Origin: a bacterium BMS3Bbin13
GTDB lineage: Bacteria > Pseudomonadota > Gammaproteobacteria > 21-64-14
NCBI GenBank assembly: GCA_002897735.1
Contig: BDTW01000034.1
Coordinates: 37,230 to 101,229 of the forward strand
DNA length: 64,000 nt
Reading direction: 5' to 3'
Below the pieces are notes generated by a model. The model made no database searches. It was not told the DNA's origin and worked only from the letters and a program-made list of their open reading frames with translations. The position numbers and the translations under genes were made by a program. This document shows, piece after piece, positions 1,476 to 23,537 of this stretch (positions within the stretch are counted from its first letter, which is position 1; each line of letters opens with the position of its first letter).

Positions 1476-1557
1476 GGAAAATTCAATGCGAAGGGGCCTT
1501 GCCATGGGCTTTGGTCTGCGCCGGTTGCAGGGATGTTACAATGCGAGAACTGACCCC
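1476..1557. repeat. 82-bp conserved intergenic element, copy A (76/82 identical to copy B at 5918-5999)
   Basis: Direct comparison of the two copies shows a 33-nt identical block, a 13-nt variable block, then 36 nt with one mismatch. It contains a direct repeat of CAATGCGA spaced 43 nt apart. It lies 45 nt after the glk stop and about 50 nt after the stop of the minus-strand gene ending at 1606. Confidence 0.8.
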
Positions 1558-2790: not shown

Positions 2791-4378
2791 GGCTGAAAGA
2801 GATCCGCTCCCAGGACACGGCCGGCTCGCTGTAGTCGGGGTGGACGATTTCGAAGTCGCCGACGCAGAACGGCGAACGTCGCTTGATCCGTTCCGCCGGC
2901 AGGAACCAGTAGAGGCCGTCGCCGATCAGGTACAGGCCGACGACCACGAGCAGGATGTCGAACGCCGCCCAGAATGCGTTTTCGCCGCCGAAATAGACGA
3001 ACAGGCCGGCGCCCACCGCCATGATGCTGAAGCCGGTCCGGATGAAGGCCGCTCCAGTGCGCGAGCGCGCCATCATGGTTCGCAACAGCGACATCGCGTT
3101 GCGTCTGTCGGCGAGCACGGTGCGCACCAGCGCAAGGCCCGTGGTGGCCCACACTCCGGGTTGAGCCTGAGGGGATAACGCCTCGGCCGACTGATCCTGG
3201 TTTAGTGTCGTGTAGAGGCACAACGAAGGGAATATGAGGTCCCAGAGGCCTTTCTTCCCGCCCGCCTTGTCGATGGTTTCGCGGCCGATATTGGCCGCCT
3301 TCCTGCCCGGCAAGTACCAATAGAATCCTTCCGCCAGCATGATCGTGCCCGCGGCGATCAGCGTCCAGTCGAACACCGACCACGGACCTGGATGGAACTG
3401 GCGAAAGAAGCCAATACCGATGCCGACGAAGGCGACGCCGGTACGGCCGAAGGCGAGGCCGGTCCGGGCCTTGGCCATCATGGTCCGCAGGTAGGCCTGG
3501 ACCGTTCTCTCTTCAGCGAGATTGAGGCGGTCGTTGGCCAGAAAACGCCGTCTTTCGACCGGAGAGAGCGAGTCCCAGTCCTGCCTCAATGCCGCGGCGC
3601 TCTCCACCACGGCGCTGCGGCCGAAGTTCATGTCTCCGCCGGGATCGGAGACCTCCAGTACGGAAAATCCCTCCGGCACGTCGTAAAGCGGGTAGCGCTT
3701 GATTTCCCTTGTTTCCCGCCGCGCCGGCAGGTACCAGAACAGGCCGTCGGCGATGGCGGCAACACCCAAAACCAGCAGCGGGATCTCCACCGACAGCAAA
3801 TCCCCCGCACCGAAAAGCCGCAAGAACACCACGGCGATGCTCACGCAGGCGAGCCCAGTACGGGTGAGCGCGAGTCCGGTCCGGCTCCTCGCAAACTGGG
3901 TCCTCTGGGCGGCATAGCGGGTGCGAACGATGGCGAGATAGGTCCTCGCCTTGGCCAGCGGCGTCCTTCCGGCCGAGGCGGGAAAATCCGCATTCAAGTC
4001 CCAGCTGTTTTCGATGAGCCGGATGAGATCGGGGCGCGTGGCGACCCGGAAAACGATCTTGTCGACGCCAAGGGCCTCCCGGATGCTCCGGTTCAGATCG
4101 GGGTCGTCAGGATTGCAGGCGATGACCTCTGCACTGTCTCCGCTGACCGACAGTGGCATCCACAGTTCGGACCTTAGCGTGTCCAGGTCCAGGCGCTGCA
4201 GGATGGTCTGCGGTACCGTCAGATCCTCGTCGTATTCGACGGTCGGACAGGCGTAACGCCTCGAGAGGCAGGCTAGGATTTCATGTTTTGGAGAGCCCGG
4301 ATGGCAGGTCGCCTCTTCCGGGCAAGGGCCCCTACAGGGAGCGGCTTGCTGAATGTGTTGTTCGTTCTCGCGGGTCAT
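2780..4378 (-). CDS. paralogous membrane protein: MshEN/T2SE_N-like N-terminal domain plus three DUF202-like two-helix units
   Basis: 532 aa. N-terminal region resembles GspE_N. Three repeats of ...RT.LA..RT..A..RTGLA..RTG... followed by two TM helices and a (F/L)(Y/F)W(Y/F)LPA motif. The last 11 bp overlap the downstream paralog. Confidence 0.6.
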   Translation of the reverse strand: MTRENEQHIQQAAPCRGPCPEEATCHPGSPKHEILACLSRRYACPTVEYDEDLTVPQTILQRLDLDTLRSELWMPLSVSGDSAEVIACNPDDPDLNRSIREALGVDKIVFRVATRPDLIRLIENSWDLNADFPASAGRTPLAKARTYLAIVRTRYAAQRTQFARSRTGLALTRTGLACVSIAVVFLRLFGAGDLLSVEIPLLVLGVAAIADGLFWYLPARRETREIKRYPLYDVPEGFSVLEVSDPGGDMNFGRSAVVESAAALRQDWDSLSPVERRRFLANDRLNLAEERTVQAYLRTMMAKARTGLAFGRTGVAFVGIGIGFFRQFHPGPWSVFDWTLIAAGTIMLAEGFYWYLPGRKAANIGRETIDKAGGKKGLWDLIFPSLCLYTTLNQDQSAEALSPQAQPGVWATTGLALVRTVLADRRNAMSLLRTMMARSRTGAAFIRTGFSIMAVGAGLFVYFGGENAFWAAFDILLVVVGLYLIGDGLYWFLPAERIKRRSPFCVGDFEIVHPDYSEPAVSWERISFSHDN

Positions 4379-4687
4379 GAGCCCATTCTCTTCGGCTGAT
4401 TCAAATCGCTGGGTGTTTCACCGGCCCCTCACACCGGGGCGGCTCAGGCGTGGAGTCGCCCGTTCACCCGGCGCACTGTCCGACACGATCCCCCGGCACT
4501 TCCCTCGGAGTGGTTGCCTTGCGCCTGAGCGCGTCGTAAGCAGCCCGGTTCACTATGCCACTATGCTTCATAGCCGTCGAATTGTATCAAAATGGCTCTG
4601 TTGGATTTCGAGTGGGTTGGCCTGCCTATTCCACACATCTTTTGAGGCCAAGGGTGCGGGAAGTCGATGAGTGACGGTATTGCGAGG

Positions 4688-4989
4688 TTATCCGTTGCAG
4701 AGCTGTCGGCGGAAGGCGCCGACGAGCGGGTAGACCCAGACGCTTTTGACCGGCTCGGCGTGACGATGCAGCCGATCGAGCTTGCCACGTCCCTTGGTGT
4801 CGCCCAGGTATTGCCGGTTGGCGGCCTTGTAGCAGGTGCCCGCGAAGCGGGGCTTTTCGACGAAGGTTTCCAGCAGGACCGGCCGGTACGCATAACGGGC
4901 ATGCCAGTCGTCCGCGAGGCGTCGGGCGACCAGGGCGAGGACGCGCGAGGCGAGGTTACGGCACCGGATCCACGCCAGGATGAGGAAGC
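4688..4989 (-). pseudogene. C-terminal fragment of a DUF4338-like protein (family recalled from Druantia DruA-type proteins)
   Basis: Minus-strand translation ...RPVLLETFVEKPRFAGTCYKAANRQYLGDTKGRGKLDR...FRRQLCNG* has no start codon. An in-frame stop lies immediately upstream at 4990-4992, followed by GGAATTCGGGGA direct repeats. The family assignment is from memory of the motif. Confidence 0.4.
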
Positions 4990-5208
4990 ATCAAATGGCT
5001 CCGGAATTCGGAATTCGGGGACAGCGGAATTCGGGGATAGTGTACCTAATTCGTGCCTGTCTGTTATGCGATTACGGTGATCCGCGAATCGGCCTCTCCT
5101 TGAACGACTGCCAACGCCGGCGCGATCCTGCGAGCGAGTGACGATCGCAAATGGGTATACTGTCACTGGAATACGGTGATTTGCAACGTTATGCTGCCAC
5201 CAAACATT

Positions 5209-5237
5209 TTGTAACCTGATACGTAATAGGTTACACT
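5209..5237 (+). promoter_or_regulatory. sigma70-like promoter (TTGTAA-17-TACACT) overlapping a GTAACCT...AGGTTAC operator palindrome upstream of higB
   Basis: Hexamers with a 17-bp spacer. The 7-bp inverted repeat between them is typical of antitoxin-autoregulated TA promoters. The ATG is only about 7 nt after the -10, so the mRNA may be leaderless. Confidence 0.5.
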
Positions 5238-5243
5238 CCAGAT

Positions 5244-5522
5244 ATGATGCGAAACTTCAAGCATAAGGGGCTTGAAAAATATTTCCTGAAGGGAATCAAA
5301 TCAGGGATTCAGGCCAAACATGCTGCCCGGCTGAGAATAATTCTCGGCCGGTTAAACGCTGCGACAAACCCAAAGGACATGAATCTTCCGGGCCTGAAGT
5401 TACATCAACTTAGCGGGCGTAGGAACGGCGTCTGGTCGGTTTGGGTTAGTGGCAACTGGCGTGTCACATTTCGTTTCGACGGGAAGGATGCCGAAGCTGT
5501 TGATTATGAAGATTATCATTGA
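5244..5522 (+). CDS. higB: type II toxin HigB (RelE/ParE superfamily, plasmid maintenance system killer)
   Basis: 92 aa, ...HKGLEKYF...LPGLKLHQLSG...WSVWVSGNWRVTFRF... matches the HigB family. Followed 6 nt later by the HigA-type antitoxin. Confidence 0.85.
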   Translation: MMRNFKHKGLEKYFLKGIKSGIQAKHAARLRIILGRLNAATNPKDMNLPGLKLHQLSGRRNGVWSVWVSGNWRVTFRFDGKDAEAVDYEDYH

Positions 5523-5528
5523 GGTGTA

Positions 5529-5819
5529 ATGATGAAGATGCATAACCCGCCCCATCCCGGTGAAGTGCTTCGCGAGCTGTGTATAGAACCAATGGGGCTG
5601 AGTATCACCGAAGCTGCTGAGGCTCTTGGTGTTAGCCGGAAAACCCTTTCTGCCATATTGAATGGTCGGGCCGGCATTAGCCCTGAAATGGCGGTTCGTC
5701 TTTCTTTGGCATTCGGAACCTCCGCTGAGAGCTGGTTGAATCAGCAGGCGCAGTATGATCTATGGGAGGCAGAGAAAAAGCGCAAGACGTTGAAGGTCAG
5801 GAAGCTATCGGCAGCATAA
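5529..5819 (+). CDS. higA: antitoxin HigA (XRE-family HTH)
   Basis: 96 aa, ...GEVLRE...[42 protein letters not shown]... is the HigA HTH_3 antitoxin signature. Confidence 0.85.
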
Positions 5820-5864
5820 GGCAAGTTCGATACGGGCGCTCTTTTGGGGTCCACCTCAGAGAAA

Positions 5865-5916
5865 GGGGACGGAGGGAATATTGTTTATTCCCTCCGTCCC
5901 CTTTCTCCCCTTTCTC
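5865..5916 (+). terminator. rho-independent terminator of higBA
   Basis: Perfect 16-bp stem GGGGACGGAGGGAATA / TATTCCCTCCGTCCCC with a 5-nt loop, followed by TTTCTCCCCTTTCTC. Confidence 0.7.
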
Positions 5917-5917
5917 A

Positions 5918-5999
5918 GGAAAATTCAATGCGAAGGGGCCTTGCCATGGGTTTTCGTCTACATCGGTTGCAGGGATGTTACAACGCGAGAACTGACCCC
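5918..5999. repeat. 82-bp conserved intergenic element, copy B
   Basis: See copy A. It lies 31 nt downstream of the stop (6031) of the minus-strand HTH antitoxin gene and directly after the higBA terminator. It is followed by T-runs (ATTTTTTCGACCCCCGTTTTTTCCGTTTTTT). Confidence 0.8.
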
Positions 6000-6030
6000 A
6001 TTTTTTCGACCCCCGTTTTTTCCGTTTTTT

Positions 6031-6330
6031 CTACTCGTGCGCTGCTTCGGCATGTAGTTTCAAACCTAAAGCTGCCACCACTCTGAGAATTGTGTCGAAG
6101 CCTGGGGTTCGTTCCCCTGAAAGTGCTTTATAGAGACTTTCTCGCGACAAGCCGGCATCGCGCGCCACTTGAGACATACCCTTGGCGCGGGCGATGTCAC
6201 CAAGTGCCTTTGCAATCAAAGCCGCATCGCCGTCTGCCTCATCAAGGCACGCTTCCAAATAGGCGGCCATTTCCTCCGGGGTACGAAGATGTTCGGCGAT
6301 ATCGTAGCGAGTAGTAATAGTCTTGCGCAT
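6031..6330 (-). CDS. addiction-module antidote protein (HigA-2-like XRE HTH antitoxin)
   Basis: 99 aa, ...DIAEHLRTPEEMAAYLEACLDE...ALGDIARAKGMSQVARDAGLSRESLYKALSGERTPGFDTILRV.ALGL.L is the classic 'probable addiction module antidote protein' HTH. Downstream of and co-oriented with the toxin. Confidence 0.85.
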   Translation of the reverse strand: MRKTITTRYDIAEHLRTPEEMAAYLEACLDEADGDAALIAKALGDIARAKGMSQVARDAGLSRESLYKALSGERTPGFDTILRVVAALGLKLHAEAAHE

Positions 6331-6341
6331 TAGGAGTGTTC

Positions 6342-6632
6342 CTACAGATTATGAGCAAGGCGCAATGCAGTCTTGATATCTTTGGCTTGGGTGCGCTTAT
6401 CACCGCCAGCCAACAGAATTACCAATTCACGCCCTTGCTGTTTGTAATACACCCGATAACCGGGGCCATAGCCGATCCGCAACTCAGAGACGCATTCACC
6501 CACAGGCGCGGTGTCTCCCGGATTTCCCGCTGCCAAGCGTTCAACCCTCGTGAGCACTCGAGCCCGCGCCCGGATATCGTGCAGCCCATCGAGCCACTTG
6601 GCATACACCTCCGTTTTGCGAATCTCCAGCAT
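6342..6632 (-). CDS. addiction-module killer toxin (RelE/ParE superfamily)
   Basis: 96 aa, MLEIRKTEVYAKWLDGLHD..ARARVLTRVERLAAGNPGD...VGECVSELRIGYGPGYRVYYKQQG.ELVILLAGGDKRTQAKDI is the 'putative addiction module killer protein' family. Confidence 0.85.
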   Translation of the reverse strand: MLEIRKTEVYAKWLDGLHDIRARARVLTRVERLAAGNPGDTAPVGECVSELRIGYGPGYRVYYKQQGRELVILLAGGDKRTQAKDIKTALRLAHNL

Positions 6633-6638
6633 CGCTCA

Positions 6639-6667
6639 ACTGTAGCCCGCTGGCTACACGTTGTCAA
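6639..6667 (-). promoter_or_regulatory. sigma70 promoter TTGACA-17-TACAGT with GTAGCC..GGCTAC operator palindrome for the RelE/HTH operon
   Basis: On the minus strand: TTGACAacgtgtagccagcgggcTACAGT, about 6 nt upstream of the toxin ATG. Consensus -35 and near-consensus -10. The inverted repeat sits in the spacer. Confidence 0.6.
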
Positions 6668-6682
6668 TTGTCTTTCCTGACC

Positions 6683-6823
6683 GTCGCAGTAGGAACACCG
6701 GTTACCCGGTGACCCCTGCACAGATCCCGGCGTGCGATTTGCCCACACCGGGCTCTTCAGTCATACTCACTTGCGTAGAAGTGCAGTGACTCACGCAAGC
6801 CTCCGATTCATACCGCCCTGTGG
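6683..6823. repeat. 141-bp repeat, copy 1 (about 93% identical to copy 2 at 7247-7387)
   Basis: Two copies 564 bp apart, each immediately 5' (on the minus strand) of a cassette-like gene. Each contains three local hairpins: CACCGG-TTAC-CCGGTG, CCCGGCGTGCG..CGCACCGGG and TTGCGT..ACGCAA. Confidence 0.8.
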
Positions 6824-6880
6824 CGCGTTTTTGCGTCAGCAAAATGAGTGCCGCTTTTGACTGTCCGTTGCTGCTATTTG

Positions 6881-7237
6881 TTAGCACTGGGCGGCCAGAT
6901 ACTTGTAAAGCTTACGGCAAACCGTATCAAGCTCATTTTGCCATGTCTCGTTATCATAGTGAATTAACGGACCTTCTCCAGAATCTATATAGTACGTGAG
7001 GAATCTCTGTATTGATTTATTGCCACGATGCCCGTTTCCCACTTCTTCAACAAGGTAGCCTCCTAACGCATGTAGTGCTACGGAGTAACGTTGCTTAGTA
7101 CTTTTGCTTTTCTTATCAAGACCTGCCCAGTTCCAGAATTCTTGAAAGATCAACAGTAACTCTTCAGATGTTTTCCTTTCCTGAGCTGGCTTTACGCCGT
7201 TGCGCCAGTCTGCGATCCATTCTGTTGCTGGTTTCAT
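6881..7237 (-). CDS. hypothetical protein (cassette-like ORF, no recognised family)
   Basis: 118 aa from ATG at 7237 (MKPATEWIADWRNG...). The longer ORF in the track starts inside the 141-bp repeat. The TAA stop is embedded in TGCTAAC. Lower GC than the surroundings. Confidence 0.45.
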   Translation of the reverse strand: MKPATEWIADWRNGVKPAQERKTSEELLLIFQEFWNWAGLDKKSKSTKQRYSVALHALGGYLVEEVGNGHRGNKSIQRFLTYYIDSGEGPLIHYDNETWQNELDTVCRKLYKYLAAQC

Positions 7238-7246
7238 ATCAAGTGC

Positions 7247-7387
7247 GTCGCAGTAGGAACACCGGTTACCCGGTGACCCCTGCACAGATCCCGGCGTGCG
7301 GTTTTCCCGCACCGGGCTCTTCAGTCCTACTCACTCGCGCAGAAATGCAGTGACTCACGCAAGCCTCCGATTCATACCGCCCTGTGG
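7247..7387. repeat. 141-bp repeat, copy 2
   Basis: See copy 1. It ends 9 nt before the ATG of the 6881-7237 gene on the minus strand. Confidence 0.8.
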
Positions 7388-7526
7388 GTCTGGTTGGGTG
7401 ATGGAAAGGCGTATGCCTTCAATACCCGCTTGATCCCCTCCCACGTCAGGCTTCGCCTTTGGCTCCGTCGATTCAACCACTTGTAGAGCAATTTGACCAC
7501 CTCCCTGTAAAATATCCACAGTAGGG

Positions 7527-7594
7527 GGAATAGGGGACAGACCACGGTTTTCCTGGAGATTTCCGCGATAAAACCGTGGTCTGTCCCCTATTCC
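7527..7594. repeat. perfect 25-bp inverted repeat (GGAATAGGGGACAGACCACGGTTTT / AAAACCGTGGTCTGTCCCCTATTCC) with an 18-nt loop
   Basis: Seen directly. It lies 3 nt from the GTTAGGC motif and 13 nt from the stop of the 7608-8027 gene. Confidence 0.85.
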
Positions 7595-7604
7595 TTGGTT
7601 AGGC
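7595..7604. other. integron core-site-like motif GTTAGGC (GCCTAAC on the gene strand, containing the region of the ORF stop); left copy of a 10-bp inverted repeat GTTAGGCATT
   Basis: GTTAGGC at 7598-7604 matches GTTRRRY. Its inverse GCCTAAC at 8051-8057 lies 23 bp upstream of the same gene's ATG. The flanks extend to 10/10 bp inverted identity (GGTTAGGCATT vs AATGCCTAACG). Confidence 0.5.
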
Positions 7605-7607
7605 ATT

Positions 7608-8027
7608 TTACTCTTCCCATACCGGATATTGCTCTGGCTTGTTGCCCGCCTCACTAACTACCCTTGGATAGCTTATGCCTTGCTTCGGTTTCTGAGGATT
7701 GTTTCTGGATTTTGTTATTTTAAACAACCAACTATCTCCATAATCGAACATATAATATAACCTTCTATCTTTTTCGAGCGGATATACGCTCTCTAAAGTC
7801 GTGCTATATATTCCTCCATCTTCATCATCAAATCGTATGCGATCACGGCTTCTTTCTGTTCTTGATATATAAAACTCATACAGATGATCATTATCAAACT
7901 CTACCGCATCCTGAATCGTAAAATGTAGGGATTCAAGAGTTGACGCGGAATCTATTTCAACTGTTGTTTGCCACTTTTCTTTCGCATAGGCGCCAAATAT
8001 TAATTCAATTTTAAAAGTCCAAATCAT
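7608..8027 (-). CDS. pRiA4b ORF-3-like family protein (hypothetical)
   Basis: 139 aa. ...YYMFDYGDSWLFKITK... matches the Y.FD(F/Y)GD.W.H.I motif of the plasmid pRiA4b ORF-3-like family. Low GC. Flanked by inverse core-like heptamers. Confidence 0.55.
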   Translation of the reverse strand: MIWTFKIELIFGAYAKEKWQTTVEIDSASTLESLHFTIQDAVEFDNDHLYEFYISRTERSRDRIRFDDEDGGIYSTTLESVYPLEKDRRLYYMFDYGDSWLFKITKSRNNPQKPKQGISYPRVVSEAGNKPEQYPVWEE

Positions 8028-8050
8028 TAAACTGGCCCTCTTTTTTCAAT

Positions 8051-8060
8051 GCCTAACGTA
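8051..8060. other. right copy of the inverted GTTAGGCATT motif (attI/attC-like core GCCTAAC on top strand)
   Basis: On the minus strand this reads GTTAGGC followed 23 nt later by the ATG of the first cassette-like ORF, i.e. the arrangement of an attI or attC R' site followed by a cassette. Confidence 0.45.
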
Positions 8061-8252
8061 TTAGCATTATATCCGACGTGCGCAGCATGGTGGATAAATG
8101 TATGTTGGGCTAAGCCGCCCATCAGGGTGGCGCTTACTTAATTTATAGGGAAATGTATTGGGTGGATCGATCGTGGCGCGATGGTGGCTGCGCGGATCTG
8201 CGCGCCGACGGCGCCTTCGGGTTCTGATTAACCATGCAGGATGCCTCTGTGA

Positions 8253-8534
8253 GGGTCGATTTTCGTCAATCTAACGCCGTTTCCATCGAAAAGCCAATCC
8301 AGGGCGTGCACACAGCGCGCTGTGCGCAACGCCGGGCGCCGGGCAGGCATCCACAAGAAGGCCTCTTGCCATACCTTCCGACACTGCTTCGCCACTCATC
8401 TTCTGGAACGGGGGCATGACATCCGCACGGTGCAGGAACTATTGGGGCACAAGGACGTAAAAACGACGATGATTTATACCCACGTGATCCAGCGCGGCGG
8501 GCACGGGGTACGGAGCCCGTTGGATGGGATGTGA
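8253..8534 (+). pseudogene. intI: integron integrase (IntI) C-terminal remnant, about 76 aa of about 320
   Basis: ...[73 protein letters not shown]. The HxxR...Y catalytic C-terminus plus the IntI-specific GVRSPLD tail; compare IntI1 ...[71 protein letters not shown]. Similarity stops at about 8305. An in-frame stop lies at 8250. Upstream is AT-rich non-coding. Confidence 0.75.
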
Positions 8535-8577
8535 GGCCGTGATGAAAGGCTGTGCATCGAGGGTACGGGGGATGTGT

Positions 8578-10020
8578 TTACCGGGCGGCCCCCGGCGCAC
8601 GCAGCAGGGTCCGGCCGTTGACTGTCAAGCGCCCCGAGTCGTAGCGCAGTACCGCTCGGCACTCGCCGCCGTCGCATTCCAGCAGGCCCCGGGCCTTCAG
8701 GGACTGCATTCGCTGTCGGCCCATCAACGTCGCCACCCGCACGATCTGTGCCGGGTCGAGTCTCTGCACGGCGCCTTTGCCGCGTGCGGCGAGCAGTTGC
8801 GAGCGCGCCCGGGTGACCAAGACCGCGCGCAGTACCGTCGTGGGGACGCGCAGTTCCGCATCGCCCACGAGCCGCTTCCACGCGTCAGGACCGGGCGTAA
8901 CGGACGCGGGGAGCTTCACGCGCCCGCGCAGCAGTACCGGGCCCGCCCCGGTACGCAGGCTCAGATCGAGGACGATCTCGGGTGAGCGGCGCAGCAGGTC
9001 GGGCAGTATCGCGAGCATCTGCCCGGCAAACCGGCGGCGGAGCGCCGCCGGGTCCGCGACCTGATCGCGCAGGCGGCGCATCGCCTTCTGCAGACGCACC
9101 ACGGCGTCCGTATCCAGACGAGCGATGCGTAATTCATAGATCAGGGGCCCGACCTCGATCGCACCGGCCCGGATCGTGCGCGCCCGCATCGCCATGCGCA
9201 CCGTCATGGCGCCGTCGTGTTCGGCGCCGGCACTGTGCAGATCCAGCCCCGTTACCGAGAGAGAGGTTCGTTTCGAGCCGGTCGCGGCGGCATCGAGGGA
9301 GGCCGCCCGCAGCGTCATCTCCCCCTGCATCAGCCCGGAGGGGGCGCGGCGGCTGTGGCCCTCCAGGCTCACGTCCCGCAGGCGCACGAAGGCGACGGGG
9401 CCGTCGATCTCCAGTCCCGGCGCCGTGAAGCGTTCGGTGACACGGCCGAAGTCGGCACTCCATCCGACCCGTCCGCGCAGGCCGCCCCACACGACCCGCT
9501 GCGCGCCATATGGGGCGGCCCGCAGTGGGCCGACACCACGGCCGGTCCCGGTCAGGCGCCAGGCCGGCATTCGCACATCGGTGTCGCTGCGCCCGGACAG
9601 GTACACCACGGTCACCGCTTCCAGGGGCTTGGCGGGGAGCCCCGAACCGGTCCCGAAACCGGACTTGGCATCGCCGATCAAAACGCTGTGGATCACCGCC
9701 AGCACCGGCGCCACGCCGTCGCGCCGGCCGGCCACCGGATACGGGCCGTGTTCGATCCGCTCATCGAGGTCGAAGCCGAACTGCGGCAGGGCCAGGGCGG
9801 GACCCGGTGGCGGGGTCAGGGTGACCCGGATCCGGGCGCGCGAGGAAAACCAGCCGCGTTCGTAGTCGACGATGCGCAGGCGAAACGGGCCGGCCCGCCC
9901 GGCCTCGCGCACTAAGGCGCGGACCTCCCGCTCGACACGGATCCCCATCCAGTACGGCAGGGCCAGGGCGGCTATCGCTACGGCCGTAGCCGCGGCGAGG
10001 ACGAGAACTTTCCTGGGCAT
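8578..10020 (-). CDS. DUF945 (YdgA-like) family protein, N-terminal membrane anchor
   Basis: About 480 aa from MPRKVLVLAAATAVAIAALALPYW...; ...IVDYERGWFSSRARIRVTL resembles the YdgA-family N-terminal motif (Y.RG.FSS). Confidence 0.45.
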   Translation of the reverse strand: MPRKVLVLAAATAVAIAALALPYWMGIRVEREVRALVREAGRAGPFRLRIVDYERGWFSSRARIRVTLTPPPGPALALPQFGFDLDERIEHGPYPVAGRRDGVAPVLAVIHSVLIGDAKSGFGTGSGLPAKPLEAVTVVYLSGRSDTDVRMPAWRLTGTGRGVGPLRAAPYGAQRVVWGGLRGRVGWSADFGRVTERFTAPGLEIDGPVAFVRLRDVSLEGHSRRAPSGLMQGEMTLRAASLDAAATGSKRTSLSVTGLDLHSAGAEHDGAMTVRMAMRARTIRAGAIEVGPLIYELRIARLDTDAVVRLQKAMRRLRDQVADPAALRRRFAGQMLAILPDLLRRSPEIVLDLSLRTGAGPVLLRGRVKLPASVTPGPDAWKRLVGDAELRVPTTVLRAVLVTRARSQLLAARGKGAVQRLDPAQIVRVATLMGRQRMQSLKARGLLECDGGECRAVLRYDSGRLTVNGRTLLRAPGAAR

Positions 10021-20083: not shown

Positions 20084-20281
20084 AAGAGCATCTCCCGCCT
20101 GTGCCGTGGGGGGCCTTCGCCCTTGAACCACTTGGTTCAGGTGGGGACATCGGCCGGCGAATCAGGCTTTCCGCACAGCGGCGGACTTGCACACAACGCC
20201 GGCGACTCCGTCCCCAGGGCGCCACGATAGGGCCAAGGATCTTCCAGGCCCCCGCCTCGAACACCGCAGGAGATGCCAAAC
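20084..20281 (-). ncRNA. ssrS: 6S RNA (SsrS)
   Basis: Immediately downstream of zapA as in other gammaproteobacteria. The minus strand contains CACCUGAACCAAGUGGUUCAAGGGCGAAGG (compare E. coli 6S ACCUUGAACCAAGGGUUCAAGGG). The terminal GGCAUCUCCUGC...GCAGGCGGGAGAUGC forms a closing stem. Ends are approximate (+/-10 nt). Confidence 0.8.
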
Positions 20282-21223: not shown

Positions 21224-21781
21224 ATGAGTGATCCGACGACCCTGCCCGCCTTCCCGGAGGTCCGCGACTACCTGCATGCGGCCGATGCCGAGTCCGGTGC
21301 GGCCGAGGCGCATGGTCTGCTGTGCGGGATGCTGTGCGCGCGAGCCGGGACCGAACCGGAACCGTGGCTCGAGCAGGTCTTGGGCCCCTCGCACGGGCCG
21401 GCCGCCCACCCGGACGTACTCGACCAGGTCTACCGCGGCACCCGCGCCGAGTTCGCCGACGGCGAACTGGGGTTCCAGCCGCTGCTGCCCGACGACGAGG
21501 AACCGCTGCCGGTGCGTATCCATGCCCTGGGTCAGTGGTGCGGGGGGTTCCTCGCGGGCCTGGGCCTGACGGAGACCTCGGATAGCACGGCGCTGGAGGG
21601 CGAGGTGGGCGAATTCGTGCGCGACGTGGCCGAGATCACCCGCATCCGGTTCGAGCCCGCCGCCGGCGAAGAGGATGAATCCGCCTACATGGAAATCGTG
21701 GAATACCTGCGCATGGGCGTGCTGCTGACCTACGAGGCCCTCAACTCACCCCCCGGCGAGCCCGCCGACACAGTCCACTGA
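21224..21781 (+). CDS. ygfB: YgfB/UPF0149 family protein
   Basis: 185 aa, ...AEAHGLLCGMLCA...PWLEQVL...ALGQWCGGFLAGLGL... is characteristic of UPF0149 (YgfB). Confidence 0.85.
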   Translation: MSDPTTLPAFPEVRDYLHAADAESGAAEAHGLLCGMLCARAGTEPEPWLEQVLGPSHGPAAHPDVLDQVYRGTRAEFADGELGFQPLLPDDEEPLPVRIHALGQWCGGFLAGLGLTETSDSTALEGEVGEFVRDVAEITRIRFEPAAGEEDESAYMEIVEYLRMGVLLTYEALNSPPGEPADTVH

Positions 21782-21805: not shown

Positions 21806-22340
21806 CGGCTTCACCACTTGGCGCTCGTAGCCCGGATACAGGCTGAAGACCGAAATCCGGGGATCACGCCCCGGTGGAAAACCGGTCCCGGATTCCGCTT
21901 CGCTCTATCCGGGCTACATCGTAGAAATGACCGCGGAACACACGGGCCGGCTTCACCACCGGCGCTCGTAGCCCGGATACAGGCCGAAGGCCGAAATCCG
22001 GGGATCACGCCCCGGTGGAAAACCGGTCCCGGATTCCGCTTCGCTCTATCCGGGCTACATCGTAGAAATGACCGCGGAACGCACGGGCCGGCTTCACCAC
22101 CGGCGCTCGTAGCCCGGATACAGGCCGAAGGCCGAAATCCGGGGATCACGCCCCGATGGAAAACCGGTCCCGGATTCCGCTTCGCTCTATCCGGGCTACA
22201 TCGTAGAAATGACCACGGAACACACGGGCCGGCTTCACCACCGGCGCTCGTAGCCCGGATACAGGCCGAAGACCGAAATCCGGGGATCACGCCCCGATGG
22301 AAAACCGGTCCCGGATTCCGCTTCGCTCTATCCGGGCTAC
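21806..22340. repeat. tandem array, 3.8 copies of a 141-bp unit (near-perfect copies)
   Basis: Period measured from the CTTCACCAC landmarks at 21809, 21951, 22092 and 22233 = 141-142 bp. Copies differ by only 2-5 substitutions. Each unit contains a perfect 12-bp inverted repeat GTAGCCCGGATA...TATCCGGGCTAC enclosing the nested hairpins CCGGT-GGAAA-ACCGG and GAAATCCGGG..CCCGGATTC. It fills the convergent gap between ygfB and hemE. Confidence 0.9.
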
Positions 22341-22382: not shown

Positions 22383-23447
22383 TCAGGCGTGGTAGCGGGC
22401 GCCGAGTTCGTGCACGGCGTCGACCAGGACCGCGACGCGGTCCGGGTCGGTATCCGCGTGGATTCCATGGCCGAGGTTGAAGACGTGCCCGGAGCCGGCA
22501 CCGAACGCCTCCAGGATCTGCGCCGCGGCGGCACGGATCCGTTCCGGGCCGGCGTAGAGGACCGCGGGGTCGAGATTTCCCTGGAGTGCAATGCGATCCC
22601 CGACCCGCGCGCGCGCGGCGCTCAGATCGACCGTCCAGTCGAGCCCCGCGGCGTCGCAGCCGGTGTCGGCGATCGCCTCCAAGTGCTGGCCGCCGCCCTT
22701 GGTGAAGAGGATCACCGGGACGCGGCGCCCGTCGTGCTCGCGCGGCAGGGACTCGACGATCCGCGCCATGTAGCGTAATGAAAACTCGCGGTACGCGACG
22801 GGGTCGAGCACCCCGCCCCAGGTGTCGAAGATCATGATCGCCTGCGCACCGGCCTCGATCTGCGCATGCAGATAGACGCCGACGCTGCGCGCGACGACCT
22901 CGAGCAGCCGATGCAGCAGTTCGGGGCGGTCGAACAGCAACCGCTTGATCCGGTCGAACTCGCGACTCGATCCCCCCTCGACCATATAGGTCGCAAGCGT
23001 CCAGGGGCTGCCGGCAAACCCGATCAGCGGCAGTGTCCCGCCCAACTCGCCGCGCACCAGGCGCACCGCGTCCAGCACGTAACGCAGATCCGTCCCGGGG
23101 TCGGGCACCCCCAGCGCGCGGATATCACGCTCCGTGCGCACCGGGCGTTCGAAGCGCGGGCCCTCGCCTTCCACGAAGTGCAGACCCAGGCCCATCGCAT
23201 CCGGCACCGTGAGGATATCGGAGAAGAGGATCGCGGCATCCAGCCGGTAGCGGCGCACCGGCTGCATCGTCACCTCGCAGGCCAGTTCCGGCGTCGTACA
23301 CAGCGTCAGGAAATTCCCGGCCCGCTCGCGCACGGTGCGGTATTCCGGCAGGTAGCGACCCGCCTGGCGCATGATCCAGATCGGCGTCGTGTCCACGGGC
23401 TCGCGCAGCAATGCGCGCAGCAGGCGATCGTTGGTCGAACCGTTCAT
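22383..23447 (-). CDS. hemE: uroporphyrinogen decarboxylase
   Basis: ...[16 protein letters not shown]... is the HemE N-terminal signature. About 354 aa from the ATG at 23447 (the track ORF starts 10 codons upstream). Confidence 0.9.
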
Positions 23448-23537
23448 TCCGCATGAGGACCGAGTAGGGGCCGGCAAGGCCCGATGAAAGATGTCGGCAA
23501 GGCCCGCGCTGCCGCGGCGCCGGATCCGGGACGGCGT

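What the first reader, a model, noticed from the sequence alone, without database searches (positions are those of the whole stretch)
6683..7387. Two copies of a 141-bp structured repeat placed immediately 5' of consecutive cassette-like genes
Copies at 6683-6823 and 7247-7387 are about 93% identical.
Each sits on the minus strand directly upstream of a gene. One is 9 nt from an ATG. The other is followed by a consensus TTGACA-17-TACAGT promoter.
Each unit contains three independent short hairpins rather than one long imperfect palindrome. The ends carry no GTTRRRY/RYYYAAC, so they do not look like canonical attC sites.
They might be a lineage-specific recombination site, a MITE, or a 5' leader RNA.
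The same unit length (141 bp) as the unrelated tandem array at 21.8 kb is probably coincidental.
Basis: seen in the sequence. Interest (0 to 1): 0.5.

Follow-up and report, generated by a model that had tools for sequence, protein, structure and literature searches.

The report
Dead group II intron tails in integron
The two 141-bp repeats are the leftover 3' ends of a self-splicing mobile group II intron that inserted into the recombination sites of a decayed integron gene-cassette array; this is a known kind of genomic debris, not a new RNA or recombination site.

Summary
The repeat is real: 6683-6823 and 7247-7387 differ at 7 of 141 positions (95%). On the minus strand both copies match Rfam RF00029, group II intron domains V and VI (45.3 and 37.0 bits). 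Copy 2 runs further upstream, to about 7521, and carries the last 46 codons of the intron's reverse transcriptase/maturase. Both are therefore 5'-truncated intron 3' ends.

They lie in a low-GC cassette array next to an integron-integrase pseudogene (8322-8534). Each is joined upstream to a half-deleted attC site and is followed by G plus the next cassette.

Related metagenome contigs show the target. Two elements that keep their 5' end, and two uninvaded ("empty") sites, place the intron inside the attC core GTTRRRY, at GTTA|G. It occurs on either strand.

The protein remnant is closest to the "bacterial class E" fragments H.ha.F1/F2, already described in a Halorhodospira cassette cluster. 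It is not close to the classical IIC-attC introns.

One related contig carries a hybrid unit. This shows that the two repeats recombine and duplicate the cassette between them.

Verdict: ordinary retroelement debris, a new member of a known kind. The lineage's core-site homing is modestly interesting.

The parts
6683..6823 (-). Intron fragment, copy 1 (141 nt). It holds the last 4 codons and stop (6810-6808) of the intron-encoded protein, a post-ORF stem, domain V (about 6756-6722), domain VI (about 6720-6685, branch A at 6690) and the 3' end ...GCGAC at 6683.
   Evidence: RF00029 match at 6757-6683, 37.0 bits, E 8e-5. 95% identical to copy 2. 95-96% identical to copies in L012, L014 and L004.
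7247..7521 (-). Intron fragment, copy 2 (275 nt). It holds the C-terminal 46 codons of the intron-encoded RT/maturase (7521-7375, stop 7374-7372), a post-ORF stem, domain V (7320-7286), domain VI (7284-7249, branch A at 7254) and the 3' end at 7247.
   Evidence: RF00029 match at 7321-7247, 45.3 bits, above the gathering score of 40. tblastn of a Thiodictyon maturase fragment hits 7521-7387 at E 1e-6. A database protein annotated as partial group II intron RT/maturase is 100% identical. 99.6% identical to L012 over 275 nt.
6824..6885 (-). Half attC site of the 118-aa cassette: R''-like GCTAAC (6885-6880), the 5' arm and the loop. The 3' arm and R' are deleted. The junction with copy 1 shares the bases CC.
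   Evidence: It aligns base for base with the 5' half and loop of the intact attC in L007 3494-3590 and with the same cassette's attC in L013. The intact L007 site folds with z = -11.3, while this stub does not fold (z = -0.8).
7522..7604 (-). attC site of the PRiA4_ORF3 cassette lacking R': R'' GCCTAAC (7604-7598) and a perfect 25-bp stem (7594-7570 with 7551-7527), then CCCTA joined to copy 2.
   Evidence: Inverted repeat I1. DNA fold z = -9.9. R'' core found. In L014/L020 the same cassette has the intron inserted in this R'' at GCC|TAAC.
7246..7246 (-). First base of the 3' exon of copy 2 (G). It is position 5 of the split R' core GTTA|GCA.
   Evidence: The uninvaded site in L013 reads GTTAGCACTTAAATATG. 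The window reads ...GCGAC|GCACTTGATATG.
6682..6682 (-). First base of the 3' exon of copy 1 (G). The flank GGT would complete GTTA|GGT.
   Evidence: All 9 independent 3' flanks examined start with G. No uninvaded site was found for this junction.
6881..7237 (-). Cassette ORF of 118 aa and unknown function, bracketed by the two repeats.
   Evidence: The same ORF lies in other cassette arrays (L013, 89% DNA identity; L021).
7608..8027 (-). Cassette ORF of 139 aa (PRiA4_ORF3 family).
   Evidence: Pfam PF07929, E 1.3e-16. 97% identical cassette in L014.
6031..6667 (-). Toxin-antitoxin cassette with its own promoter: TTGACA-17-TACAGT at 6667-6639, RelE/ParE-type toxin at 6632-6342, HTH antitoxin at 6330-6031.
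   Evidence: TIGR02683 E 9e-37 and TIGR02684 E 7.5e-36. Promoter scan.
8051..8110 (-). Complete attC- or attI-like site (GCCCAAC ... GTTAGGC) in front of the first cassette.
   Evidence: Core motifs. 81% identical to an intergenic site in L018. The fold is weak (z = -0.1), so the assignment is tentative.
8322..8534 (+). Integron integrase pseudogene. Only the last 70 codons are in frame.
   Evidence: TIGR02249 (integron integrase), E 6.5e-37, profile positions 246-315 of 315. Upstream frames are broken.

Best explanation
The repeats are two dead, 5'-truncated copies of one mobile group II intron. Its encoded protein shows no endonuclease domain in its relatives, and it is related to the published 'bacterial class E' lineage.

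Shown:
- Each copy ends with intron domains V and VI and the intron's exact 3' end.
- Copy 2 also keeps the tail of the intron's reverse transcriptase/maturase gene.
- Both lie in the cassette array of a decayed chromosomal integron.
- In relatives this intron type sits inside the conserved attC core GTTRRRY, between GTTA and G. It is found on the cassette-sense strand (in R', as in the window) and on the opposite strand (in R'').

Inferred:
- The intron RNA reverse-spliced into single-stranded attC DNA. It was guided by pairing of an exon-binding loop (UUAAC) with GTTA.
- cDNA synthesis, which starts at the intron's 3' end, stopped early. The incomplete copy was then joined to upstream DNA with loss of part of the attC hairpin. 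That would leave a precise 3' junction and a ragged 5' junction.

Consequences:
- The fragments cannot splice or move, because domains I-IV and the RT are missing.
- They have destroyed two attC sites, so neighbouring cassettes are now fused.
- They form 141-bp direct repeats around the 118-aa cassette. Ordinary homologous recombination can use these repeats to duplicate or excise that cassette.
For: Intron identity:
- RF00029 hits both copies.
- Domains V and VI are supported by compensatory changes at 11 of 28 pairs across 11 related sequences, with a bulged A 7 nt from the 3' end.
- The protein tail matches maturase fragments.
- P0150, a longer relative of that tail, is 56% identical to the H.ha.F2 protein (published as class E). 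It is 37% identical to a Klebsiella LtrA and 30% identical to a IIC-attC protein.
- Its best solved-structure match is a IIB intron RT (6me0), ahead of the IIC RTs.

Integron context: integrase tail, low GC at 5-8 kb, attC cores and hairpins, and cassettes shared with other arrays.

Target GTTA|G:
- L007: intact attC ...GGCGTTA|GTGCG and 3' junction GCGAC|GATGC.
- L023: a full-length relative (448-aa protein, Rfam D1-D4-6) lies in an attC with R'' GCCCAAC. Its junctions are ...GCCGTTA|GTGCG and CGCGAT|GGTTC. A GUUAACG loop lies about 217 nt into the intron.
- Uninvaded sites: L013 for window copy 2, and the window itself for the antisense copy in L014.
- All 9 independent 3' flanks begin with G.

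Truncation series: fragments of 141, 275, 275, about 289, 345, 372, more than 480 and more than 678 nt all keep the same 3' end.

No sign of constraint:
- The window and L014 differ as much in the fragment (97.8% identical) as in the adjacent cassette (96.9%).
- The L021 version of copy 1 carries two further domain V substitutions.

Recombination: the upstream unit in L021 has copy 1's 5' flank, all 7 copy-2 variants and copy 2's 3' flank.
Against: - No full-length intron of exactly this lineage was recovered. The closest complete element (L023) has a protein only 53% identical to P0150, the same longer relative used above, so the EBS1-IBS1 pairing is extrapolated.
- Truncation during integration cannot be told apart from later deletion using sequence alone.
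- Window copy 2 and the antisense copy in L014 share exactly the same 5' breakpoint beside the same cassette. That fits common descent plus a rearrangement better than two independent abortive insertions.
- No uninvaded site was found for copy 1.
- The class E label rests on similarity to a published fragment, not on a phylogeny.
- The L021 hybrid comes from one short-read metagenome contig.
Confidence: 0.85

Rival explanations
1. Same intron identity, different history. Full-length introns inserted first. Their 5' parts and the adjacent attC arm were deleted later, for example by replication slippage or hairpin processing at the attC stem, or by rearrangement between inverted intron copies on the two strands of one attC.
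For: - Both 5' junctions remove attC sequence beyond the insertion point, and the copy 1 junction shares the bases CC.
- Copy 2 and the antisense L014 copy share one breakpoint. In L014 that copy abuts a second, different intron fragment broken at the homologous codon, as a symmetric deletion in a two-intron palindrome would produce.
- Internally deleted or 3'-truncated relatives exist (L005, L007, L015, L019).
- Sonbol and Siam propose hairpin-induced slippage for H.ha.F1/F2.
Against: Most copies keep the exact 3' end while their 5' ends vary. That is the usual signature of incomplete reverse transcription. My searches were anchored on the 3' region, so this bias is partly an ascertainment effect.
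Confidence: 0.35
2. The fragments have been co-opted. The structured RNA would then act as a 5' leader, stabiliser, insulator/terminator or promoter for the downstream cassette, and that would explain why it recurs immediately upstream of cassette ORFs.
For: - In 8 of 9 contexts the unit lies 9-50 nt upstream of an ORF in the sense orientation.
- IIC-attC introns are known to carry outward promoters that drive downstream cassettes (PMC3001079).
Against: - The position is fully explained by the target, since the R' core directly precedes the next cassette.
- The promoter scan finds no promoter-like site inside the units.
- In L014 the unit is antisense.
- 5' ends vary.
- Domain V is mutated in L021, and divergence equals that of the flanking cassette DNA.
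Confidence: 0.07
3. The units are a lineage-specific recombination site (an atypical attC) or a MITE.
For: They lie at cassette boundaries, recur in several genomes and fold into hairpins.
Against: - They match group II intron domains V/VI, and one carries a maturase gene tail.
- They have no R''/R' cores or L boxes, and the arms are not mutually complementary.
- They have no terminal inverted repeats or target duplications.
- Genuine attC sites of normal architecture lie next to them and are interrupted by them.
Confidence: 0.02

Closest known systems
H.ha.F1 / H.ha.F2: 5'-truncated group IIB (bacterial class E) intron fragments in a CALIN of Halorhodospira halochloris (Sonbol and Siam 2021, PMC7923331)
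   Same: - Only domains V and VI plus part of the intron protein gene remain.
- attC or attC-like hairpins lie upstream.
- The arrays are rich in toxin-antitoxin cassettes and have no working integrase.
- The host is also placed in Chromatiales by one source's name for a close relative of its Lgt protein.
- The protein of a relative of the window's remnant is 56% identical to H.ha.F2.
- Domains V and VI are clearly homologous.
   Different: - It is a different sub-lineage. The 3' end is ...CUACUGCGAC rather than ...CUACCGUGAG, and the protein C-terminus differs.
- The published work did not define a target. Here the junctions place the intron at GTTA|G of the attC core.
Group IIC-attC introns (S.ma.I2 and relatives; Leon, Quiroga, Centron and Roy; PMC3001079)
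   Same: Group II introns that use integron attC sites as targets. They sit at cassette boundaries and can block or rewire cassette expression.
   Different: - IIC-attC introns insert in the bottom strand, antisense to cassettes, at TTGT|T. The window copies are sense, on the top strand, at GTTA|G, two bases further along the core.
- The protein is only 30% identical to a IIC-attC protein.
- Domain V has an AGC triad. From my own recollection IIC introns typically have CGC; I did not check this.
- A complete relative has Rfam D1-D4-6-type RNA.
UHB.I2 (IIB1/CL1 intron after an attC) and the Enterobacter cloacae top-strand IIC intron, as cited in PMC7923331
   Same: [quoted passage not shown]
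   Different: They belong to different protein classes. UHB.I2 has unusual boundaries (UUGCG...GU) and no conserved flanking core.
5'-truncated 'dead on arrival' copies of target-primed retroelements (bacterial group II intron fragments; LINE-like elements)
   Same: A fixed 3' end, variable 5' ends, loss of the RT gene and neutral decay.
   Different: Here the truncations also remove part of the target (the attC arm). One breakpoint recurs in two contexts.

Membership tests
Group II intron (Rfam RF00029, domains V-VI) | Domain V hairpin of about 34 nt with an AGC triad, a 2-nt bulge and a terminal loop | tested here: met
   Covariance-model hits of 45.3 and 37.0 bits. The consensus fold has compensatory pairs. 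In copy 1 two C-to-U changes keep G-U pairs.
Group II intron (Rfam RF00029, domains V-VI) | Domain VI with a bulged branch-point A 7-8 nt from a 3' end that finishes in AY | tested here: met
   The A at 7254/6690 is unpaired, 7 nt from the end ...GAC.
Group II intron (Rfam RF00029, domains V-VI) | RT/maturase ORF in domain IV | tested here: met
   Present only as a remnant of 46 C-terminal codons in copy 2. Longer relatives carry the YADD motif and RVT_1/GIIM domains.
Group II intron (complete, functional element) | 5' GUGYG and domains I-IV | tested here: not met
   Absent from the window. Present only in relatives L007 (partial) and L023.
Group IIC-attC introns | Intron-encoded protein belongs to class C | tested here: not met
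   30% identity to the UHB.F1 IIC-attC protein against 56% to a class E fragment. The best solved-structure match is a IIB RT. No phylogeny was built.
Group IIC-attC introns | Inserted in the attC bottom strand, antisense to cassettes, at TTGT|T | tested here: not met
   Both window copies are sense to the cassettes, and the junctions map to GTTA|G. One relative (L014) is on the bottom strand but at the same GTTA|G register.
Bacterial class E / IIB intron fragments in CALINs (H.ha.F1/F2 type) | 5'-truncated, keeps domains V and VI and part of the protein gene, attC-like hairpin upstream, no active integrase nearby | tested here: met
   compared with PMC7923331.
Bacterial class E / IIB intron fragments in CALINs (H.ha.F1/F2 type) | Protein falls in class E in a phylogeny, and the RNA is IIB-like | tested here: inconclusive
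   Only pairwise identity (56%) to a published class E fragment. There is no tree, and domain I of this exact lineage was not recovered.
attC recombination site | R'' RYYYAAC and R' GTTRRRY at the ends, with an imperfect palindrome (L boxes) between them | tested here: not met
   No cores at the unit ends. The hairpins are three separate stems, not one palindrome.
MITE | Terminal inverted repeats, target-site duplication and a fixed length | tested here: not met
   No inverted termini. The flanks show no duplication. Lengths range from 141 to more than 678 nt.
Integron (context) | intI gene, attI/attC sites and an array of short cassettes | tested here: inconclusive
   - intI survives only as a 70-codon tail.
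- There is one complete and two half attC-like sites.
- The cassettes are shared with other arrays.
- No attC covariance model was available to me.

The most novel reading that the evidence does not exclude
A non-IIC group II intron clade has made the universally conserved integron core GTTRRRY its homing site. Its proteins lack an endonuclease domain and are class E-like, and its RNA is Rfam D1-D4-6-type. It cuts at GTTA|G on either attC strand through a short EBS1 (UUAAC)-GTTA pairing.

The clade is seen almost only as 5'-truncated copies that delete the attC 3' arm. The debris would then permanently fuse cassettes. It would also replace integrase-driven attC x attC exchange with homologous recombination between 141-275-bp intron tails, as the hybrid unit in L021 suggests.

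The shared breakpoint in opposite orientations (window copy 2 and L014) would then reflect intron-mediated inversion or palindrome resolution within a single attC.
Probability: 0.3. Interest if true: 0.5.

Novelty: new member of a known kind. Interest (0 to 1): 0.3.

Why it matters
For annotation, the result removes a false lead. The repeat is not a new RNA or recombination site. Several ORFs that overlap it are artefacts of intron debris: 6702-6887, 7355-7654, 7372-7545 and the N-terminal extension 7238-7312.

For integron biology it adds a small point. Introns outside class C also use attC sites, here at a defined position in the conserved core. Their dead copies erode attC sites and fuse cassettes. 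They also leave direct repeats that allow cassette duplication or loss without the integrase.

If the target rule GTTA|G holds, it would give a simple marker for scanning cassette arrays. A complete member of the lineage could be tested as a targeting tool specific for the integron core.

Tried and rejected
- **Rfam at a permissive threshold over 4300-8700.** Apart from the two intron hits it gave only spurious microRNA matches to the perfect hairpins.
- **Pfam and NCBIfam on the 57-aa ORF 7372-7545.** No hit. Homology appeared only with tblastn and database searches.
- **Minimum-energy folding of the isolated 141-nt unit.** It recovers domain V but not the canonical domain VI. The alignment-based fold is the one to trust.
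- **Search for a complete intron of this lineage.**
  - The genome-collection scan found one partial contig, and the window's own genome is not in that collection.
  - The metagenome scan found three contigs, all truncated or degenerate.
  - The viral-contig scan found nothing.
  - Plasmid tblastn found nothing above 45% identity.
  - Three protein searches returned only fragments of 323 aa or less.
  - The exhaustive representative search gave complete proteins only at 53% identity or less, plus an N-terminal 373-aa fragment at 72%. Full-length elements therefore probably exist but break metagenome assemblies.
- **Literature.** The two Leon and Roy 2009 papers were not available. The IIC-attC target TTGT|T is quoted from PMC7923331.
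- **Rejected readings.**
  - I considered reading the perfect 25-bp stem at 7527-7594 as something other than an attC stem. The intact attC in L007 has an equally perfect 23-bp stem, so I kept the attC reading.
  - The idea that the Klebsiella plasmid intron is the parent element was dropped. It is 85% identical in domains V-VI but only 37% in protein, and it has a different 3' exon.

Full report
**1.

The two stretches 6682-6823 and 7246-7387 are direct repeats 564 bp apart and 95% identical. A pairwise alignment shows 7 mismatches in 141 nt, and similarity stops sharply on both sides apart from one shared G. Both lie on the minus strand ahead of minus-strand ORFs.

Copy 2 ends 9 nt before the ATG at 7237. 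Copy 1 ends 15 nt before a TTGACA-17-TACAGT match at 6667-6639. BLAST of the unit against the window finds only these two copies, and it finds no similarity to the 141-bp tandem array at 21.8 kb.

**2. What the unit is**

A scan of the whole window against Rfam reports 7321-7247 (minus strand) as RF00029, the domain V-VI model of group II catalytic introns. The score is 45.3 bits against a gathering score of 40. At a permissive threshold the other copy scores 37.0 bits (E 8e-5) at 6757-6683.

The last 73 nt are 85-86% identical to the 3' end of a widespread Klebsiella plasmid intron annotated ltrA.

I aligned 11 related 3' ends: the two window copies, six metagenome or plasmid copies, a Thiodictyon plasmid fragment and the two published Halorhodospira fragments. 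The alignment folds into domain V and domain VI. Compensatory changes occur at 11 of 28 pairs, and an A is bulged 7 nt from the end.

Copy 2 is longer than 141 nt. A 'group II intron maturase-specific domain' protein from the Thiodictyon plasmid aligns to 7521-7387 at E 1e-6 within the window. A database search with that 50-aa translation returns 15 proteins of 55-88 aa. The two of them that carry an NCBI description include one, 100% identical, annotated as a partial group II intron RT/maturase.

So copy 2 (7247-7521) keeps the last 46 codons of the intron-encoded protein, and copy 1 is cut 4 codons before the stop. Nothing in the window matches intron domains I-IV or the RT domain. Both copies are 5'-truncated fragments.

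**3. The setting is a decayed integron**

- The region from about 5.0 to 8.1 kb has 46-53% GC in a genome of about 68% GC.
- At 8322-8534 (plus strand) lie the last 70 codons of an integron integrase (TIGR02249, E 6.5e-37, profile positions 246-315 of 315). Upstream the frame is broken.
- To its left, on the minus strand, lie typical cassette contents:
  - a PRiA4_ORF3-family ORF (8027-7608);
  - a 118-aa ORF of unknown function (7237-6881);
  - a RelE/ParE-HTH toxin-antitoxin pair with its own promoter (6667-6031).
- Exact look-ups place the window in an uncultured hydrothermal-vent gammaproteobacterium (bins BMS3Abin12, Bbin12 and Bbin13). They also show that the cassette ORFs recur in other metagenome contigs.

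**4. Where the intron sits**

Just upstream of each fragment is a partial attC site.

- After the PRiA4 ORF come R'' GCCTAAC (7604-7598) and a perfect 25-bp stem. Next is CCCTA joined to copy 2.
- After the 118-aa ORF comes GCTAACAAATAGCAGCAACGGACAGTCAAAAGCGGCAC...GCAAAAACGCG, joined to copy 1.
- This second site matches, base for base, the 5' arm and loop of an intact attC in contig L007. There the 3' arm and GTTA follow.

Four independent observations fix the insertion point.

(i) In L007 the intact attC ends ...GGCGTTA and is followed directly by GTGCGCC..., a group II intron 5' end. The element's 3' end is GCGAC|GATGC. The split core is therefore GTTA|GAT.

(ii) In L023 a full-length relative lies in an attC with R'' GCCCAAC. 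It has a 448-aa protein that matches only the RT domain in Pfam, and Rfam D1-D4-6 RNA. Its junctions are ...GCCGTTA|GTGCG and ...CGCGAT|GGTTC, giving the core GTTA|GGT. About 217 nt into the intron is a GUUAACG loop that can pair with CGUUA.

(iii) L013 carries the same 118-aa cassette without an intron. Upstream it reads GTTAGCACTTAAATATG, whereas the window reads [intron]GCGAC|GCACTTGATATG.

(iv) L014 and L020 carry the PRiA4 cassette (97% identical) followed by TAAAATGCC|[the same intron fragment, antisense]. The window reads TAAAATGCC|TAAC uninterrupted. That is an insertion at GTTA|GGC on the bottom strand.

All nine independent 3' flanks begin with G. The lineage therefore targets GTTA|G of the integron core on either strand. 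The window copies are in the cassette-sense orientation in R', and this is why they lie directly in front of the next cassette's ORF.

**5. Which known introns it resembles**

Published IIC-attC introns insert in the attC bottom strand, antisense to cassettes, at TTGT|T (PMC3001079; PMC7923331). The window copies differ from these in strand and in register.

They also differ in protein. P0150, a 298-aa relative of the remnant, was compared with four proteins:

| Compared with | Identity |
|---|---|
| H.ha.F2 protein (published as bacterial class E) | 56% |
| Klebsiella LtrA | 37% |
| UHB.F1 (IIC-attC) protein | 30% |
| RmInt1-type Sinorhizobium proteins | 39% |

Its best solved-structure match is the T.el4h IIB RT (84 bits), ahead of GsI-IIC RT (66 bits).

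Sonbol and Siam (2021) described the same situation in Halorhodospira halochloris. Two 5'-truncated IIB/class E fragments, with only domains V and VI and part of the protein gene, lie in a cassette cluster that has no integrase. attC-like hairpins sit upstream and toxin-antitoxin cassettes are abundant. The window's fragments are a new member of that kind. I did not find the GTTA|G target described in the papers I could read.

**6. How the fragments arose (inferred)**

Related copies form a series with one fixed 3' end and variable 5' ends: 141, 275, 275, about 289, 345, 372, more than 480 and more than 678 nt. This is the usual outcome when reverse transcription, which starts at the intron's 3' end, stops early.

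Both window junctions also remove attC sequence upstream of the insertion point. The copy 1 junction shares the bases CC. Such a junction could form at integration or by a later deletion at the hairpin. I favour truncation at integration, by about 55 to 35, but sequence alone cannot decide.

One observation fits neither simple model. Window copy 2 and the antisense L014 copy have exactly the same 5' breakpoint (|CTGTGGATATTTTACAGGG), beside the same cassette. In L014 the fragment abuts, head to head, a second and different intron fragment broken at the homologous codon. An inversion between the two inverted cores of one attC, or symmetric deletion in a two-intron palindrome, would explain this. 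It remains unresolved.

**7. Function now**

The fragments lack domains I-IV and the RT, so they cannot splice or move. I see no sign of selection on them.

- Between the window and L014, the fragment (97.8% identical) has diverged about as much as the adjacent cassette (96.9%).
- The L021 version of copy 1 has two further domain V substitutions.
- The promoter scan finds no promoter-like site inside the units.

They do have consequences. Two attC sites are destroyed, which fuses three cassettes. The 118-aa cassette is now bracketed by 141-bp direct repeats.

Contig L021 comes from a related population with the same gene order. It carries a hybrid unit with copy 1's upstream flank, all seven copy-2 variants and copy 2's downstream flank, followed by a second copy of the cassette. 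This is the product expected from homologous recombination between the two repeats, either a tandem duplication or a circle. The caveat is that it rests on one short-read contig.

**8. Verdict**

The finding is real, and it is explained as debris of a group II intron in a decayed integron. It is not a new RNA, attC type or MITE.

Interest is low to moderate. The window itself shows an ordinary, previously described phenomenon. The wider comparison suggests a non-IIC intron clade that homes to the integron core at a defined position. That is a modest extension of current knowledge and needs a complete element and a mobility test.

Noticed in passing
window 5859-5907; L007 3655-3703 and 6593-6648; L008 2892-2950: A perfect 22-bp hairpin (minus strand AAAGGGGACGGAGGGAATAAACAATATTCCCTCCGTCCCCTTT) recurs 95-98% identical in other cassette arrays. 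One copy lies inside a broken intron about 70 nt after its 5' end. It may be a small mobile palindromic element. The only Rfam matches are spurious microRNA hits.
   Followed up: partly
window 1476-1557 and 5918-5999; L015 2413-2447: An 82-nt direct repeat (93% identical) lies, on the minus strand, 30-50 nt after a stop codon in both places. Its first 35 nt (GGGGTCAGTTCTCGYRTTGTAACATCCCYGCAACC) recur in another array just after a cassette ORF and upstream of an intron-protein remnant. Its function is unknown, and it has no Rfam match in the copy that was searched at a permissive threshold (5918-5999).
   Followed up: partly
window 7247-7521 compared with L014 1165-1449 and L020: The same intron fragment with the same 5' breakpoint lies beside the same PRiA4 cassette, but in the opposite orientation and in the other attC core. 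In L014 it abuts a second intron fragment broken at the homologous codon. This suggests inversion or palindrome resolution within one attC.
   Followed up: partly
L021 1-806 (same gene order as window 6031-7246): A hybrid repeat unit is followed by a second copy of the 118-aa cassette. This is the product expected from recombination between the two 141-bp repeats (tandem duplication or circle). The L021 version of copy 1 also carries extra domain V mutations.
   Followed up: yes
window 7527-7594; L002 3634-3683: The arm motif AAACCGTGG(T/G)CTGTCCCCTATT of the 25-bp attC stem occurs twice just downstream of the intron fragment on a Thiodictyon plasmid.
   Followed up: no
window 8065-8161; L018 2007-2102: The complete attC- or attI-like site next to the integrase remnant, plus about 50 nt beyond it, is 81% identical to an intergenic site in an unrelated sediment contig. 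It could be a conserved attI-type region.
   Followed up: no
window 8200-8534: The integron integrase is a pseudogene. Only the last 70 codons are in frame, weak frame-shifted similarity runs back to about 8200, and the 5' two-thirds and attI are missing.
   Followed up: partly
window 20088-20275 (minus strand): 6S RNA (RF00013), 71.5 bits, full length.
   Followed up: no
window 21820-22340: A 141-bp tandem array of about four units (97-98% identical) lies between a 185-aa ORF (21224-21781), which I did not identify, and an ORF at 22383-23477 that looks like uroporphyrinogen decarboxylase by eye (not searched). It is unrelated in sequence to the intron unit. The long ORFs on both strands across it look like repeat artefacts.
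   Followed up: partly
window 5244-5819 (plus strand): A HigB/HigA toxin-antitoxin pair lies in the opposite orientation to the other cassettes, at the edge of the low-GC island.
   Followed up: no
protein database searches: Relatives of this intron protein appear almost only as fragments of 323 aa or less, mostly on contigs of 1-3 kb. Complete proteins appear only at 53% identity or less. Either the lineage is mostly dead copies, or metagenome assemblies break at its repeats.
   Followed up: partly
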